64,000 bases of DNA from an uncultured bacterium. Its GTDB lineage: Bacteria; Patescibacteriota; Minisyncoccia; UBA6257; 2-01-FULL-56-20. Below, in pieces: positions 24,001 through 27,000 of this stretch. The stretch spans positions 32,001-96,000 of the forward strand of contig CAWJQC010000008.1 of assembly GCA_963844965.1 (NCBI GenBank), in the 5' to 3' direction. The position numbers are program-made. Positions within the stretch are counted from its first letter, which is position 1; each line of letters begins with the position of its first letter.

Positions 24001-27000
24001 CTTTTTCATGACCAATTAATTAAAAGACGACACCATCTTTTTTATTCCTTCGCTTATGCCGACCTTCGGACGCCAGCCAATTTCCCGCCCGATCCTTGAA
24101 ATATCGGCGTAAAAACCGGCGGGCTTCCCGGCGGATCCAGTCAAATCCGCGCCATAAATAAGCTTCGCCACCCTGCGCACCGGCGTGAGTTTTCCCGAAC
24201 CAATATTATATAGATCGCTCTGATTCTTTTTATGCTTCTCCAGTATCAGGCGCAGGGCGCGGGCCACGTCTTCCACGTAAATGAAATCATTCGCGCTGTC
24301 GGGACTTTTGAGTTTGGGGACGGCGCCGTTTCGCATGCCGGTCACAAGATGGGGAATCAGCGAGGTCGGTTTTTGCCCCGGACCATAGACGTAAAAAAAT
24401 CTCGTCCAGACGAACTCCAGGCCGTTTTCTTCGGCAAATTCCCTGCCGAGACAATGCAGAGCCGTCTTCGCCGCGGAAAAAGCGCTCGTGATGCGGAGCG
24501 GCGCGTCTTCCTTCACCGCCCCATTCACCGTGCCGTATTCCCAACAACTTCCAGCCATAACGATTTTCTTGCAGCCCGCATATTTCGCGAGACGCAGGAC
24601 GTCCAAGCCGTAAGATAAATTTTTTGCGCTCATCTCAAAACCGTAATCTGGTATCCCCTCCCAGGCGAGATGGAGAATTGCGTCCGGCTTGAAACGTCTT
24701 ACGGAATTTTTCCATTTTTCTATACCGGAAAGATCGCCGCGCAAAATGGCGATGCCCCTTGCGGGATAACCCTCGGCCCTGCGCTGCACAAGTAAAAGCA
24801 ATTTATGCCCACGCTTTTGCAATTCACGGACCGTAGGTCTGCCGATAAATCCCGTGCCTCCGGTGACGAAAATTCTCATCTTTTGCTTTTAATTATACTC
24901 TTCACCGTCTCGAGAGATCTCCGTCGGATTTCATAAGCACCGTACGGCAGCCGGCCGCTGCGCCGGCCTCCCCGTCGCGCGGATCGTCTCCGACGAAAGC
25001 GGCGCGGGGCAGATCGATCTGATAATCAACGGCTGCGCGGATGAACATGCCCGGCTTCGGCTTCCTGCAAAAACATCCTTCGTCGGCCCGATGAGGACAA
25101 TGATATATGCCATTAATGGAAATGCCGTGCTCCTTCAGTTCGCGTTCCATCTCCTTGTGGATATTGAACACATCCACATCGGTCATCAGGCCGCGTCCGA
25201 CCCCGGCCTGATTGGAAATAATGTATATCTCGTAGTTATGTTTCTTGAGAAGAGCGAGTGCATCGAAAACGGTAGGAAGGAATTTGAATTCCTTCCAGTT
25301 CTTTACGTAATCGCCGACCGGCTGGCGCTTATTTATCACGCCGTCGCGATCGAGGAAAATGACCTTGCGGCGCGGGTCGAGGAATCTTTCTGCCAAAGGG
25401 AGGCGCTCTGCAGACCCGATGCTGTAATAAGGCGTGTCGGTGACGAAAGCCGCAAGTTTGCCGTCCTTGATCAGGCGAGGCAACATAACTTCTTCAAGCC
25501 AGAAATTCTCCGCCGGCATTGAGTCTATCACCGACTTTTCAAAAATAAAAAAACCGGTATCTACTCCGTTCAGGCCCAGCGCTTCGCGTTTACGATCATA
25601 TGCCATTATGAAACCGTCCTCGGCAAGAACGTTGTTCCTGGTTGTGCCATATCTGTTGGTGTACACTGTCATCGTGGCAAGAGCTTTTTTCTCGGCATGA
25701 AAAGCCGCGAGTTTCGCAAGGTCAAAATGAAGATAATTGTCGCAGTAGAGCAAAAGGAAACGCTCGTCCAAGAGTGCTTTAGCGTTGCGAAGACGCGTGC
25801 CTGTCAAGTGGTCTACCGGACCAGTAGAATACTCAACCGCAACGCCGAACCTCGAGCCGTCACCAACGTACGCTTTTACTTTTTCATGCAAATATCCGGT
25901 GAGAAGCGCAATCTTTTTGATACCGTTCTTTTTAAGAAGATCGAGAAGATAACCCATGAACGGGCGGCCGTCCACCGGCACCAATATTTTCGGAGTGTCG
26001 TAAGTATATGGCCGCATCCGAAGACCTATGCCGCCGGCCAAAATTACCGCTTGTGTTACCGATTTTTCCTCAGCCATCTTAATCTTGCGTCTACCTTTTT
26101 GTTTTCCTTAAGATATTTGATTTGCGCCAAACGGTTGCACGTCCGCCCGCGGAATTGTTCTTCGGTAAAATCTGCTTTCTTGAACAATTCCACAAGTTCG
26201 CGGCCTCCCCGAGCCAAATCCCATTCCGGCTTATAGTAATCCCCGAGCACGGTAAGGATTTTTTTAAAACTCACGCGGTAAGTGCGCGCATCTTTGCCGT
26301 GCTCGCCGGTAAAAATAAGCTCACTGCCCGGCACGGCGCGCTGGGCTGCCAGCGCCAAATCCCTAACGGTGAAATTGCCGCCGGGAATTCCAATATTGAA
26401 AGACTCGCAGTTCACGAGAGGAGCCGGCGCTTCAAGCGCAGCGATAAAAGCGGCCGAAACATCGCGGACATGGACCACGGGCCGCCAAGGCGTGCCATCG
26501 CTTTTTACTTCAATTTTCCCCGTCGTGTAGGCCGAAGCCACCAAATTGTTGAAAACGATGTCGCAACGCAGGTTTGGGCTCGCGCCGAAAACGGTTGACG
26601 GTCTCATGCAGACGACGATAAAATCGCCGCCGCACATTTTTCTAAGTTCGCATTCGGCATCCCATTTCGTCCTGGCGTACGCCGTGACGCCATAAGGCCC
26701 CGCTTCGTCTTCCGTAAGTTCGCGGCTCGTATCGGCAACGCCATACATGCTCTGCGACGAAGCATAGACAAACCTCTTCACGCCTGCGGCTTTTGCGGCG
26801 TTCGCAACCCTCATAGTGCCCTCGAAATTTATTTCCTCGGTAAGCGATGGGTTAAATTCGCCCAAGGGATCGTTAGAAAGCGCCGCAAGATGAACTACTC
26901 CGTCAATCCCCTTGAAATCTTCCGGGGATGCATCACGAACGTCCTTTTTTATCTGGCGCTTCGGCCGCTCCACTTCGTAAAGCCCGGTGTCTTCGTAAAA

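What the first reader, a model, noticed from the sequence alone, without database searches (positions are those of the whole stretch)
24902..26077. Nucleotidyltransferase–GmhB fusion
A 391-aa protein carries an N-terminal sugar-1-P nucleotidyltransferase and a C-terminal GmhB-type HAD phosphatase, with the DRDGVIN and Cys-x-His...Cys-x-Cys zinc motifs. It would channel heptose-1,7-bisphosphate to heptose-1-P and then to NDP-heptose. Together with the separate HddC-like gene it gives redundant activation enzymes.
Basis: partly seen in the sequence, partly recalled or inferred. Interest (0 to 1): 0.5.

Follow-up and report, generated by a model that had tools for sequence, protein, structure and literature searches.

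The report
Fused heptose phosphatase–nucleotidyltransferase gene
This gene encodes one protein that joins two consecutive enzymes of activated seven-carbon sugar (NDP-heptose) synthesis; the fusion is real but common in uncultivated microbes, so it is a sound annotation, not a discovery.

Summary
Window 24902-26077 (minus strand) encodes a 391-aa protein with an N-terminal PF00483 sugar-1-phosphate nucleotidyltransferase (about residues 8-232) and a C-terminal HAD-IIIA, GmhB-like phosphatase (about 237-385). It has the DxD nucleophile pair, the other HAD motifs and the Cys-x-His...Cys-x-Cys zinc site.

The heptose reading rests on comparative context. In 80 related loci the fusion lies near a GHMP (HddA-like) kinase in 63 and a GmhA-like isomerase in 51, usually in one operon with a Cj1427-like SDR, an RmlC-like epimerase and a reductase.

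The architecture is common: more than 1800 database clusters and at least 590 species genomes across CPR bacteria, DPANN and Thermoplasmatales archaea and many bacterial phyla. I found no paper or solved structure for it.

- The ORF's last residues are frameshifted. A 1-nt repair restores a conserved C-terminal helix (400 aa).
- This clade has Ser where NTases normally carry the second metal-binding Asp.
- The separate NTase is an old paralog (29-30% identity), not a simple duplicate. Its operon lacks a phosphatase, and the fusion holds the only GmhB-like domain in the window.
- Nucleotide specificity is unresolved.

Verdict: new member of a known kind; modest interest.

The parts
24902..26077 (-). 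NTase-GmhB fusion ORF as it stands (391 aa)
   Evidence: ORF list; Pfam and NCBIfam domains; 100% identical database protein P0001 and more than 1800 homologs
25382..26056 (-). N-terminal sugar-1-phosphate nucleotidyltransferase domain (residues ~8-232; GGIGLR 15-20, K30, D113; Ser219 at the position of the canonical second metal-ligand Asp)
   Evidence: PF00483 E 1e-16; alignments to MurU, HddC and GMPP structures; Foldseek TMt 0.89 to MurU and 0.83 to HddC; motif survey
24923..25369 (-). C-terminal HAD-IIIA / GmhB-like phosphatase domain (residues ~237-385; D243/D245, S288, K339, D364/D368; Zn site C327, H329, C335, C337)
   Evidence: NCBIfam GmhB model 159 bits; HAD-IIIA and histidinol-phosphatase domain models above cut-off; residue-level alignment to GmhB structures
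24876..24917 (-). Frameshifted 3' end: out-of-frame coding for the conserved C-terminal helix (LETVKSIIKSKR*), ending in an ATGA overlap with the next gene
   Evidence: DNA read; frame analysis and single-base insertion test; family consensus
26056..27105 (-). Upstream SDR ('SDR349'); overlaps the fusion start by 22 nt. Its best solved relative is 6vo6/6vo8, and it has SSQSMYG...YARTK rather than a dehydratase TDE motif. Predicted NDP-heptose C4 oxidoreductase
   Evidence: homolog adjacent to the fusion in 44 of 80 related loci at 40-73% identity
24016..24879 (-). Downstream SDR ('SDR287'), predicted NDP-4-keto-sugar reductase
   Evidence: present in 26 of 80 loci
22933..24015 (-). Second downstream SDR ('SDR360'), paralog of SDR349
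   Evidence: present in 9 of 80 loci
29705..30262 (-). RmlC-like 3,5-epimerase of the cassette
   Evidence: TIGR01221 165.8 bits, above the 155.75 cut-off; present in 29 of 80 loci
30285..31514 (-). TylC3-type sugar C-methyltransferase (a second copy lies at 31587-32846)
   Evidence: Pfam Methyltransf_13/14/23; present in 18 of 80 loci
1384..2454 (-). GHMP kinase, HddA-like (heptose-7-P 1-kinase candidate)
   Evidence: Pfam GHMP; NCBIfam HddA 144 bits, below the 600 cut-off; homolog in 63 of 80 fusion loci
649..1254 (-). SIS-domain isomerase, GmhA-like
   Evidence: NCBIfam gmhA 97-98 bits, below cut-off; homolog in 51 of 80 fusion loci
1..642 (-). Standalone PF00483 NTase (247 aa in full; cut by the window edge); 29-30% identical to the fusion's N-half; keeps the canonical Asp (YLYDIGT)
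8727..11278 (.). ADP-heptose-type genes: HldA-like kinase 8727-9692 (-), HldC-like PF01467 NTase 9691-10266 (+), HldD-like epimerase 10229-11278 (-). All would also need a GmhB
20531..22220 (-). Split transketolase (N part 21429-22220, C part 20531-21415); local accessory, possibly a sedoheptulose-7-P supply
   Evidence: found in only 2-3 of 80 related loci
27165..28055 (-). IS481-family transposase inserted just upstream of the SDR349-fusion operon
   Evidence: in relative L087 a NUDIX gene sits directly divergent from the SDR-fusion pair with no IS between them

Best explanation
The gene encodes a bifunctional enzyme for the last two steps of nucleotide-activated heptose synthesis. A GmhA-like isomerase converts sedoheptulose-7-P to a heptose-7-P, and an HddA-like GHMP kinase makes the alpha-1,7-bisphosphate. 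The C-terminal GmhB-like HAD domain, with an Asp243 nucleophile and a Zn-stabilised cap loop, removes the 7-phosphate. The N-terminal PF00483 domain then condenses the heptose-1-P with an NTP to give NDP-heptose. This product feeds the adjacent modification cassette: a Cj1427-like SDR (C4 oxidation), an RmlC-like epimerase, C-methyltransferase(s) and a reductase. The cassette makes a modified heptose for a surface glycan.

What is shown: the domain architecture, the intact catalytic motifs, and the conserved gene neighbourhood. What is inferred: the substrates, the reaction order, the identity of the nucleotide, and any channelling between the two active sites. In this genome the HAD half is also the only GmhB candidate seen for the unfused GHMP-SIS-NTase operon and for the HldA/HldC/HldD set, so it may act in trans for them.
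For: Architecture and motifs. Catalytic residues of both halves are invariant in 32 family members at 50-62% identity. The two-domain model is confident.

Neighbourhood in 80 loci from named genomes: GHMP 63, GmhA-like 51, SDR349 44, RmlC 29, SDR287 26, C-MT 18. A recurrent operon is GHMP-GmhA-SDR349-FUSION-RmlC-SDR287, and several such loci show no other PF00483 NTase in the fetched flanks (L008, L010, L015, L017, L023, L048). Pfam-labelled contexts agree.

The HAD half is most similar to solved GmhB enzymes (E 1e-28). The N-half aligns full length with HddC and MurU. SDR349's best solved relative is 6vo6 (E 3e-31). The chemistry of C4-dehydrogenase, then C3/C5-epimerase, then C4-reductase on GDP-heptose is documented for C. 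jejuni, as is one GmhB shared by two heptose routes (PMC10680097).

No other GmhB-like sequence occurs in the window. GHMP-SIS-NTase operons without their own HAD recur in two other genomes that carry the fusion.
Against: No curated equivalog threshold is reached: GmhB 159 vs 178, alpha-type GmhB 118 vs 250, HddC 78 vs 300, GmhA-like 98 vs 209-276, HddA-like 144 vs 600. The exact sugar and its stereochemistry are therefore not fixed.

The whole clade has Ser where NTases have the second Mg-binding Asp. The ORF's C-terminal helix is lost to a frameshift, which may be real or an assembly error.

In this window GmhA and HddA lie 23 kb away, next to a different NTase. An IS element sits just upstream of the operon. 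An Inositol_P-family phosphatase lies beside the unfused operon in the source genome and could be another phosphatase. The rest of the genome was not available. No biochemical data were found.
Confidence: 0.78

Rival explanations
1. The chemistry is the same but the sugar differs. The fusion would process another ketose-derived sugar bisphosphate: a non-manno heptose made by a divergent SIS isomerase, or a product of the neighbouring split transketolase such as an octose. The product would then not be NDP-D-glycero-D-manno-heptose.
For: The GmhA-like, HddA-like, GmhB-like and HddC-like scores all fall well below the curated equivalog cut-offs. A split transketolase lies 2.7 kb downstream in the same orientation.
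Against: Transketolase accompanies the fusion in only 2-3 of 80 loci, whereas SIS and GHMP genes do so in 51 and 63. The best solved relatives of the HAD half are all heptose-bisphosphate phosphatases. SDR349's best relative, as I recall it, acts on GDP-heptose.
Confidence: 0.12
2. Only the phosphatase half is catalytic. The N-terminal NTase-like domain would have lost transferase activity (Ser replaces the second metal-ligand Asp) and would serve as a nucleotide- or sugar-binding regulatory or scaffolding module. The standalone NTase247 or the HldC-like enzyme would do the activation.
For: The clade-wide Asp-to-Ser change sits at the W-x-D-x-G position. A standalone NTase with the canonical Asp co-occurs on the same contig in this genome and three relatives.
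Against: GGxGxR, Lys30, Asp113-Asn114, the YD.xR motif and the G-F-F sugar motif are invariant across the family. Many loci (L008, L010, L015, L017, L023, L048) show no other PF00483 NTase within 10 kb, although they encode SDR, epimerase and reductase enzymes that need an NDP-sugar. The Ser itself is conserved, which suggests a functional variant, not decay.
Confidence: 0.07
3. The copy in this genome is a decaying or non-functional gene, with a 3' frameshift and an IS481 insertion upstream. The unfused pathway alone would be the functional one here.
For: The frameshift removes the near-invariant C-terminal helix. An IS481 transposase sits immediately upstream of the SDR349-fusion operon. Several other genes in the window look frameshifted.
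Against: Only about 10 terminal residues are affected and every catalytic residue is intact. The many frameshifts across the window, including in housekeeping genes such as RNase J, point to an indel-prone assembly and not to decay. The unfused operon here lacks any GmhB gene, so it would itself need this protein.
Confidence: 0.03

Closest known systems
[quoted passage not shown]
   Same: The two chemistries are the same and consecutive: a HAD-IIIA 7-phosphatase with a Zn loop, then a PF00483 heptose-1-P nucleotidyltransferase. The upstream partners are the same (GmhA-type isomerase, GHMP kinase). Downstream, modification runs through a 4-keto intermediate by SDR and cupin enzymes (PMC10680097).
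   Different: Here the two enzymes form one polypeptide, NTase first, joined by a roughly 5-residue linker. Both halves score below the equivalog cut-offs. The NTase has Ser at the second metal-ligand Asp. The nucleotide is unknown. The cassette adds TylC3-type C-methyltransferases.
HldE (bifunctional heptose-7-P kinase / heptose-1-P adenylyltransferase of the ADP-heptose pathway)
   Same: It is a fusion of two enzymes of NDP-heptose synthesis in one protein, working with GmhA and GmhB.
   Different: HldE fuses a PfkB kinase to a PF01467 cytidylyltransferase-fold NTase. Those are non-consecutive steps, and they act on the beta-anomer. The target fuses the phosphatase to a PF00483 NTase, which are consecutive steps. 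The window separately encodes HldA-like and HldC-like proteins.
HisB-N (histidinol-phosphate phosphatase domain fused to IGP dehydratase)
   Same: It is a GmhB-derived HAD-IIIA domain, with the same Zn loop, recruited into a bifunctional fusion (PMC9798254). The target passes the shared 'histidinol-phosphatase domain' model TIGR01656.
   Different: The fusion partner and the pathway differ. The target scores much better against GmhB models (159 bits) than against HisB models (67-77 bits).
Independent NTase-GmhB fusions in Bacteroidota, Melainabacteria and Firmicutes (for example Brumimicrobium glaciale IC156, Prevotella MAGs)
   Same: The domain order is the same, and the neighbours are again GHMP and GmhA genes.
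   Different: They are only 28-33% identical, have a linker of about 30 residues, and keep the canonical Asp (EYIKDMGTP or the HddC-like EYFIDIGIPE). They are therefore probably separate fusion events.

Membership tests
GmhB (D-glycero-D-manno-heptose-1,7-bisphosphate 7-phosphatase, HAD-IIIA) | HAD motif I DxD (nucleophile and general acid/base) plus motifs II-IV | tested here: met
   D243/D245, S288, K339 and D364/D368 align with the GmhB structures 3l8h, 4pnh, 3l8e and 2gmw. They are invariant in 32 family members.
GmhB (D-glycero-D-manno-heptose-1,7-bisphosphate 7-phosphatase, HAD-IIIA) | Zn-binding Cys-x-His...Cys-x-Cys loop | tested here: met
   C327-P-H329 and C335-F-C337 align with the same residues in the GmhB structures and are invariant in the family.
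GmhB (D-glycero-D-manno-heptose-1,7-bisphosphate 7-phosphatase, HAD-IIIA) | Score above the curated equivalog cut-off | tested here: not met
   NF006506 159.4 vs 178; TIGR00213 114.2 vs 149.6; alpha-type NF050049 118.3 vs 250. The domain-level models pass: TIGR01656 131.5 vs 84.15 and TIGR01662 109.6 vs 44.6.
GmhB (D-glycero-D-manno-heptose-1,7-bisphosphate 7-phosphatase, HAD-IIIA) | Genomic association with a sedoheptulose-7-P isomerase and a heptose-7-P kinase | tested here: met
   GHMP kinase in 63 of 80 related loci and GmhA-like in 51 of 80, mostly in the same operon. In the window both are present but 23 kb away.
GmhB (D-glycero-D-manno-heptose-1,7-bisphosphate 7-phosphatase, HAD-IIIA) | 7-phosphatase activity on heptose-1,7-bisphosphate and its anomer preference | not testable with these tools
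   This needs an enzyme assay.
[quoted passage not shown] | NTP_transferase fold with the GGxGxR...PK signature and the first metal-ligand Asp | tested here: met
   PF00483 E 1e-16. G15-G16-x-G18-x-R20, K30 and D113 are invariant. Foldseek gives TMt 0.83 to HddC 5xhw and 0.89 to MurU.
[quoted passage not shown] | Second metal-ligand Asp in the W/F-x-D-x-G motif | tested here: not met
   Ser219 (YYSIGS) aligns with the Asp of HddC (yfiDig), MurU and 7whr. Ser holds this position in about 113 of 120 clade members.
[quoted passage not shown] | Score above the curated HddC equivalog cut-off, and closer to HddC than to other NTases | tested here: not met
   NF049965 78.1 vs 300. The ManB-like, archaeal GlmU-type and MurU models score higher (103, 93 and 88 bits). 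PDB E-values put 8x7s, MurU and 7whr ahead of HddC.
[quoted passage not shown] | GTP specificity | not testable with these tools
   No reliable sequence determinant was found. By my manual motif alignment (RmlA numbering from memory), the residue at the RmlA Gln83-equivalent position is Gly in this family. Cassette partners give mixed hints: RmlC passes the dTDP-type equivalog cut-off, while SDR349 resembles a GDP-heptose enzyme.
HldC / HldE C-terminal domain (ADP-heptose adenylyltransferase) | Cytidylyltransferase-like fold (PF01467) | tested here: not met
   The N-half is PF00483 or PF12804, with no PF01467 hit. A separate PF01467 ORF exists at 9691-10266.

The most novel reading that the evidence does not exclude
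The Ser-variant NTase-GmhB clade may define a second, separate NDP-heptose supply line. It would use a nucleotide other than GDP, for example a pyrimidine; the PRK/uridine-kinase-like domain fused to it in some relatives, the RmlC-equivalog epimerase and the TylC3-type C-methyltransferases all hint that way. This line would run in parallel with the classical unfused GHMP-GmhA-(GmhB)-NTase route in the same cell. It would make C-methylated or epimerised heptoses for the surface glycans of CPR bacteria and DPANN or Thermoplasmatales archaea, with the fusion's phosphatase also serving the other heptose routes in trans.
Probability: 0.25. Interest if true: 0.5.

Novelty: new member of a known kind. 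Interest (0 to 1): 0.3.

Why it matters
If the assignment is right, public annotation undersells thousands of genes labelled only 'HAD-IIIA family hydrolase' or 'GmhB'. They encode a two-step NDP-heptose synthase that marks a conserved heptose-modification cassette in CPR bacteria, DPANN and Thermoplasmatales archaea and many other phyla. That would point to heptose-containing, possibly C-methylated, surface glycans in organisms whose envelopes are almost unstudied. It would also offer a compact enzyme for chemoenzymatic NDP-heptose synthesis. For this window, it explains how heptose operons that lack their own phosphatase could still work. It does not change any concept: both reactions, and the habit of fusing pathway neighbours, are well known.

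Tried and rejected
- **Source contig look-up.** Exact-sequence look-up of the target and of its 100% identical database twin found no indexed contig. The source genome was reached only through the neighbouring NTase, on a 3.3-kb Logan contig. The genome-wide presence of another gmhB could therefore not be checked.
- **Species representatives.** The source genome is not among the GTDB species representatives; the best match is 56% identical.
- **Literature.** Searches for a characterised NTase-GmhB or HddC-GmhB fusion, for C-methyl or 6-deoxy heptose with GmhA, and for heptose in CPR and DPANN organisms found nothing relevant. The library is open-access only, so absence there is not proof.
- **PDB.** No solved two-domain homolog by sequence or by fold (TMq at most 0.55). 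The AFDB50 fold library was unavailable.
- **Transketolase as a pathway member.** Rejected: it occurs in 2-3 of 80 loci.
- **PRK-like kinase.** It is fused or adjacent in some relatives but has no counterpart in the window.
- **Nucleotide specificity from homology.** Inconclusive.
- **Identity of 6vo6.** I could not confirm from held papers that PDB 6vo6 is Cj1427. That identification rests on my memory and on the deposited name 'putative sugar-nucleotide epimerase/dehydratase'.
- **SDR349 as a 4,6-dehydratase.** Considered and rejected: it has SSQSMYG instead of the TDE motif, scores weakly against dehydratase models (29 bits) and hits 6vo6 best.
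Full report
**1. The observation**

The window contains an uninterrupted ORF at 24902..26077 on the minus strand (ATG start, 391 aa). Pfam finds NTP_transferase (PF00483) at residues 10-187, and HAD-type models (Hydrolase, HAD_2, Hydrolase_like, PNK3P) over residues 238-384.

NCBIfam places the following over residues 237-384:
- the GmhB model NF006506 (159.4 bits, cut-off 178)
- the histidinol-phosphatase domain model TIGR01656 (131.5 bits, cut-off 84.15)
- the HAD-IIIA model TIGR01662 (109.6 bits, cut-off 44.6).

Over residues 8-230 it lists a series of sugar-1-P nucleotidyltransferase models, all far below their cut-offs: ManB-like 103 bits, archaeal GlmU-type 93, MurU 88 and HddC 78.

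In full-length numbering the motifs are GGIGLR 15-20, K30, D113-N114, DRDGVIN 243-249, SNQ 288-290, CPH 327-329, CFCRKPKPG 335-343 and GDDPRD 363-368. The HAD half aligns residue for residue with the solved GmhB enzymes 3l8h, 4pnh, 3l8e and 2gmw. The alignment covers the Asp dyad, the Ser/Thr, the Lys, the acidic motif IV and the Cys-x-His...Cys-x-Cys zinc ligands.

The N-half aligns over its full length with MurU, with a GDP-mannose pyrophosphorylase-like protein and with HddC. An AlphaFold2 model built on a 32-sequence family alignment is very confident (pLDDT 95.1, pTM 0.89). Its N-domain superposes on MurU (TMt 0.89) and on HddC 5xhw (TMt 0.83). No solved structure covers both domains.

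**2.

(a) The 3' end is frameshifted. The family ends in a near-invariant 'LLxVVKxxI...' helix, whereas the target ends '...DGDLSRR*'. In another frame the DNA reads LETVKSIIKSKR*. Inserting one base near 24915, inside a CTCTC run, yields a 400-aa protein ending '...DGDLLETVKSIIKSKR*'. Its TGA stop overlaps the ATG of the next gene as ATGA. Several other genes in the window also look frameshifted or fragmented: the CmcI-type methyltransferase, a second fcl copy and RNase J. An indel-prone assembly is therefore at least as likely as a real mutation.

(b) Canonical sugar-1-P NTases carry a second metal-ligand Asp in a W/F-x-D-x-G motif (HddC yfiDig, MurU qwvDvg). The target has Ser219 there (YYSIGS). 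This is a property of the clade: about 113 of the 120 closest database homologs have Ser at that position. The window's standalone NTase has Asp (YLYDIGT), as do the distant fusion clades. All the other catalytic signatures of the N-half are invariant. I therefore read this as a conserved variant metal site, not as inactivation, but it remains a real caveat.

**3. How common the fusion is**

A search of the 5.8-billion-protein collection gave 1804 hits at E <= 1e-10 among the candidates scored. All 120 listed hits contain both domains at 51-62% identity, and 108 of them cover at least 97% of the query. Where they carry a name, it is 'HAD-IIIA family hydrolase', 'histidinol-phosphate phosphatase family protein' or 'GmhB'. 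About a tenth of them are roughly 600 aa long and carry an extra C-terminal PRK/uridine-kinase-type P-loop domain.

The taxa include:
- CPR/Patescibacteria
- Pacearchaeota, Woesearchaeota and Thermoplasmatales
- Desulfobacter, Gammaproteobacteria, Nitrospirae, Acidobacteria, Elusimicrobia, Omnitrophota, Verrucomicrobia, Chloroflexi and Kuenenia
- the isolate Mesorhizobium sp. M1312
- at about 30% identity, Bacteroidota (for example Brumimicrobium glaciale), Prevotella, Melainabacteria and Firmicutes.

The 30% clades have a longer linker and different NTase motifs (EYIKDMGTP, or the HddC-like EYFIDIGIPE). The fusion therefore probably arose more than once.

**4. What it does: evidence from context**

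I mapped the window's proteins onto the 80 fetched loci, many of which are truncated contigs.

| Window protein | Loci with a homolog near the fusion (of 80) |
|---|---|
| GHMP (HddA-like) kinase | 63 |
| GmhA-like SIS isomerase | 51 |
| Upstream SDR (SDR349) | 44 |
| RmlC-like epimerase | 29 |
| Downstream SDR (SDR287) | 26 |
| TylC3-type C-methyltransferase | 18 |
| Transketolase | 2-3 |

A recurrent operon is GHMP-GmhA-SDR349-FUSION-RmlC-SDR287. In several such loci (L008, L010, L015, L017, L023, L048) no other PF00483 NTase appears in the flanks, so the fused N-half must be the activating enzyme there. Independent Pfam-labelled contexts in a Desulfobacter chromosome and in Thermoplasmatales MAGs agree.

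SDR349 has SSQSMYG...YARTK, not the TDE motif of a 4,6-dehydratase. Its best solved relative is 6vo6/6vo8 (E 3e-31). I recall this entry as C. jejuni Cj1427, the GDP-heptose C4-dehydrogenase, but I could not confirm the PDB code in the papers held. In C. jejuni, Cj1427, then a C3/C5-epimerase, then a C4-reductase remodels GDP-heptose. The cassette here has the same enzyme types plus C-methyltransferases.

**5. The 'separate HddC-like gene' and redundancy**

The left edge of the window carries, on the minus strand, a GHMP kinase (1384-2454), a GmhA-like gene (649-1254) and an NTase that runs off the window (1-642). Its full-length form is a 247-aa standalone protein from the same 156-kb contig. 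Its homologs are all about 227-278 aa, and nearly all of the named ones come from Patescibacteria. It is only 29-30% identical to the fusion's N-half.

In the Patescibacteria genome GCA_018971305.1, one contig carries two sets about 14 kb apart:
- a complete unfused set, GHMP-SIS-HAD(187 aa)-NTase(246 aa)
- the SDR-FUSION-SDR unit.

The standalone HAD is 38% identical to the fused HAD half. Orthologs between the two genomes are 54-82% identical. The fused and unfused sets are therefore old paralogs that are kept together, which argues for specialisation and against redundancy.

In this window only 6 nt separate the SIS gene from the NTase, so the unfused operon has no phosphatase gene. The same phosphatase-less arrangement recurs in GCA_964387675.1 and GCA_964363585.1, and both of those genomes also carry the fusion on the same contig.

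tblastn finds no other GmhB-like sequence in the 64 kb. The window also encodes an HldA-like kinase, a PF01467 HldC-like ORF, an HldD-like epimerase and a GT9 glycosyltransferase. The fusion's HAD half is thus the only visible GmhB candidate for up to three NDP-heptose routes. This echoes C. jejuni, where one GmhB (Cj1152) serves both the capsule and the LPS routes.

Two caveats apply. The rest of the genome is unseen. An Inositol_P-family phosphatase also lies just beyond the window next to the unfused operon.

**6. What remains open**

- **Nucleotide.** The N-half is PF00483, which excludes the HldC/ADP type at the fold level, but within PF00483 it sits no closer to HddC than to MurU or the GlmU-type enzymes. 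The hints conflict: the RmlC-like partner passes the dTDP-type equivalog cut-off, SDR349 resembles what I recall as a GDP-heptose enzyme, and some relatives carry a uridine-kinase-like domain.
- **Sugar.** The GmhA-like and HddA-like proteins score well below their equivalog cut-offs, so the heptose stereochemistry, or even a different ketose-derived sugar, is not settled.
- **Channelling.** It is not shown. The high pTM only suggests a fixed arrangement of the two domains.

**7. Comparison with what is known, and verdict**

Functionally the protein is GmhB plus an HddC-like NTase in a single chain. It resembles HldE as a fused NDP-heptose enzyme, and HisB as a fusion that recruits a GmhB-family domain. 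As for membership, it meets the mechanistic hallmarks of GmhB but not the curated equivalog score. It meets the fold and most of the catalytic hallmarks of an HddC-type NTase, but it fails the equivalog score and lacks the second Asp.

I found no paper or structure on the fusion. It is, however, abundant and already machine-annotated in the databases.

I rate it a new member of a known kind with modest interest (0.3). It is a correct and useful annotation. The testable twists are the Ser-variant metal site, the unknown nucleotide, the parallel fused and unfused routes, and the phosphatase possibly shared in trans.

Noticed in passing
window 54714-58427 (-): A 1237-aa class I aminoacyl-tRNA synthetase (IleRS-like: tRNA-synt_1, Anticodon_1, DUF5915) has a histidine-phosphatase-superfamily domain (PF00300) at residues 554-719, between the two halves of the catalytic domain.
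   Followed up: no
window 27165-28055 (-) and 27907-28956 (+): An IS481-family transposase lies between a NUDIX-domain ORF and the SDR349-fusion operon. In the related genome (L087) the NUDIX gene is directly divergent from the SDR-fusion pair with no IS between them, so the insertion may have split the promoter region.
   Followed up: partly
window 19485-20224 (-); 37092-38166 (-); 50620-51516 (+): Several genes look frameshifted or fragmented: a CmcI-type methyltransferase split across two frames, a second fcl copy in pieces, and an RNase J fragment that starts inside the beta-CASP domain. With the target's own 3' frameshift, this suggests an indel-prone assembly.
   Followed up: partly
L002/L003 10001-11839; L005 11195-11785; L006 11175-11792; L019, L033, L036, L056, L067: In about a tenth of related loci a PRK/uridine-kinase-type P-loop domain is fused to the C-terminus of the NTase-GmhB protein or encoded directly after it, even though a GHMP kinase is also present. 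Its role is unknown. The window has no counterpart.
   Followed up: partly
window 6707-11278: An ADP-heptose-type set sits in a genome whose closest relatives are Patescibacteria: an HldA-like PfkB kinase, an HldC-like PF01467 ORF on the opposite strand, an HldD-like epimerase and a 620-aa GT9 heptosyltransferase-like protein. The window also has RNase Y and RNase J. This suggests a use for ADP-heptose other than LPS.
   Followed up: partly
L074, L076, L083 (Bacteroidota) and L056-L069: Distant NTase-GmhB fusions (28-33% identity) have a linker of about 30 residues and keep the canonical Asp. Three of them carry an HddC-like 'EYFIDIGIPE' motif. This points to independent fusion events.
   Followed up: partly
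L084 1454-2978 (just beyond the window's left edge); L085 10798-11856; L090 6847-7761: An Inositol_P-family phosphatase lies convergent to the standalone NTase in the source genome and in two relatives. In the source genome an AAA_33 P-loop protein accompanies it. It could be an alternative sugar-phosphate phosphatase for the unfused operon.
   Followed up: no
L089 2759-4131: In a related CPR genome a bAvd gene plus a reverse transcriptase (RVT_1), a pairing typical of diversity-generating retroelements, sits immediately upstream of the GHMP-SIS-NTase operon.
   Followed up: no
window 29705-30262 (-): The RmlC-like epimerase passes the curated dTDP-4-dehydrorhamnose 3,5-epimerase equivalog cut-off (165.8 vs 155.75), although no rmlA, rmlB or rmlD gene was recognised in the window. 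It is a component of the fusion cassette in 29 of 80 loci.
   Followed up: partly
window 11379-14153 (-): A carbamoyltransferase (616 aa) sits next to a small SxtJ-family protein and a PD-(D/E)XK protein inside the glycan locus. This suggests O-carbamoylation of a sugar.
   Followed up: no
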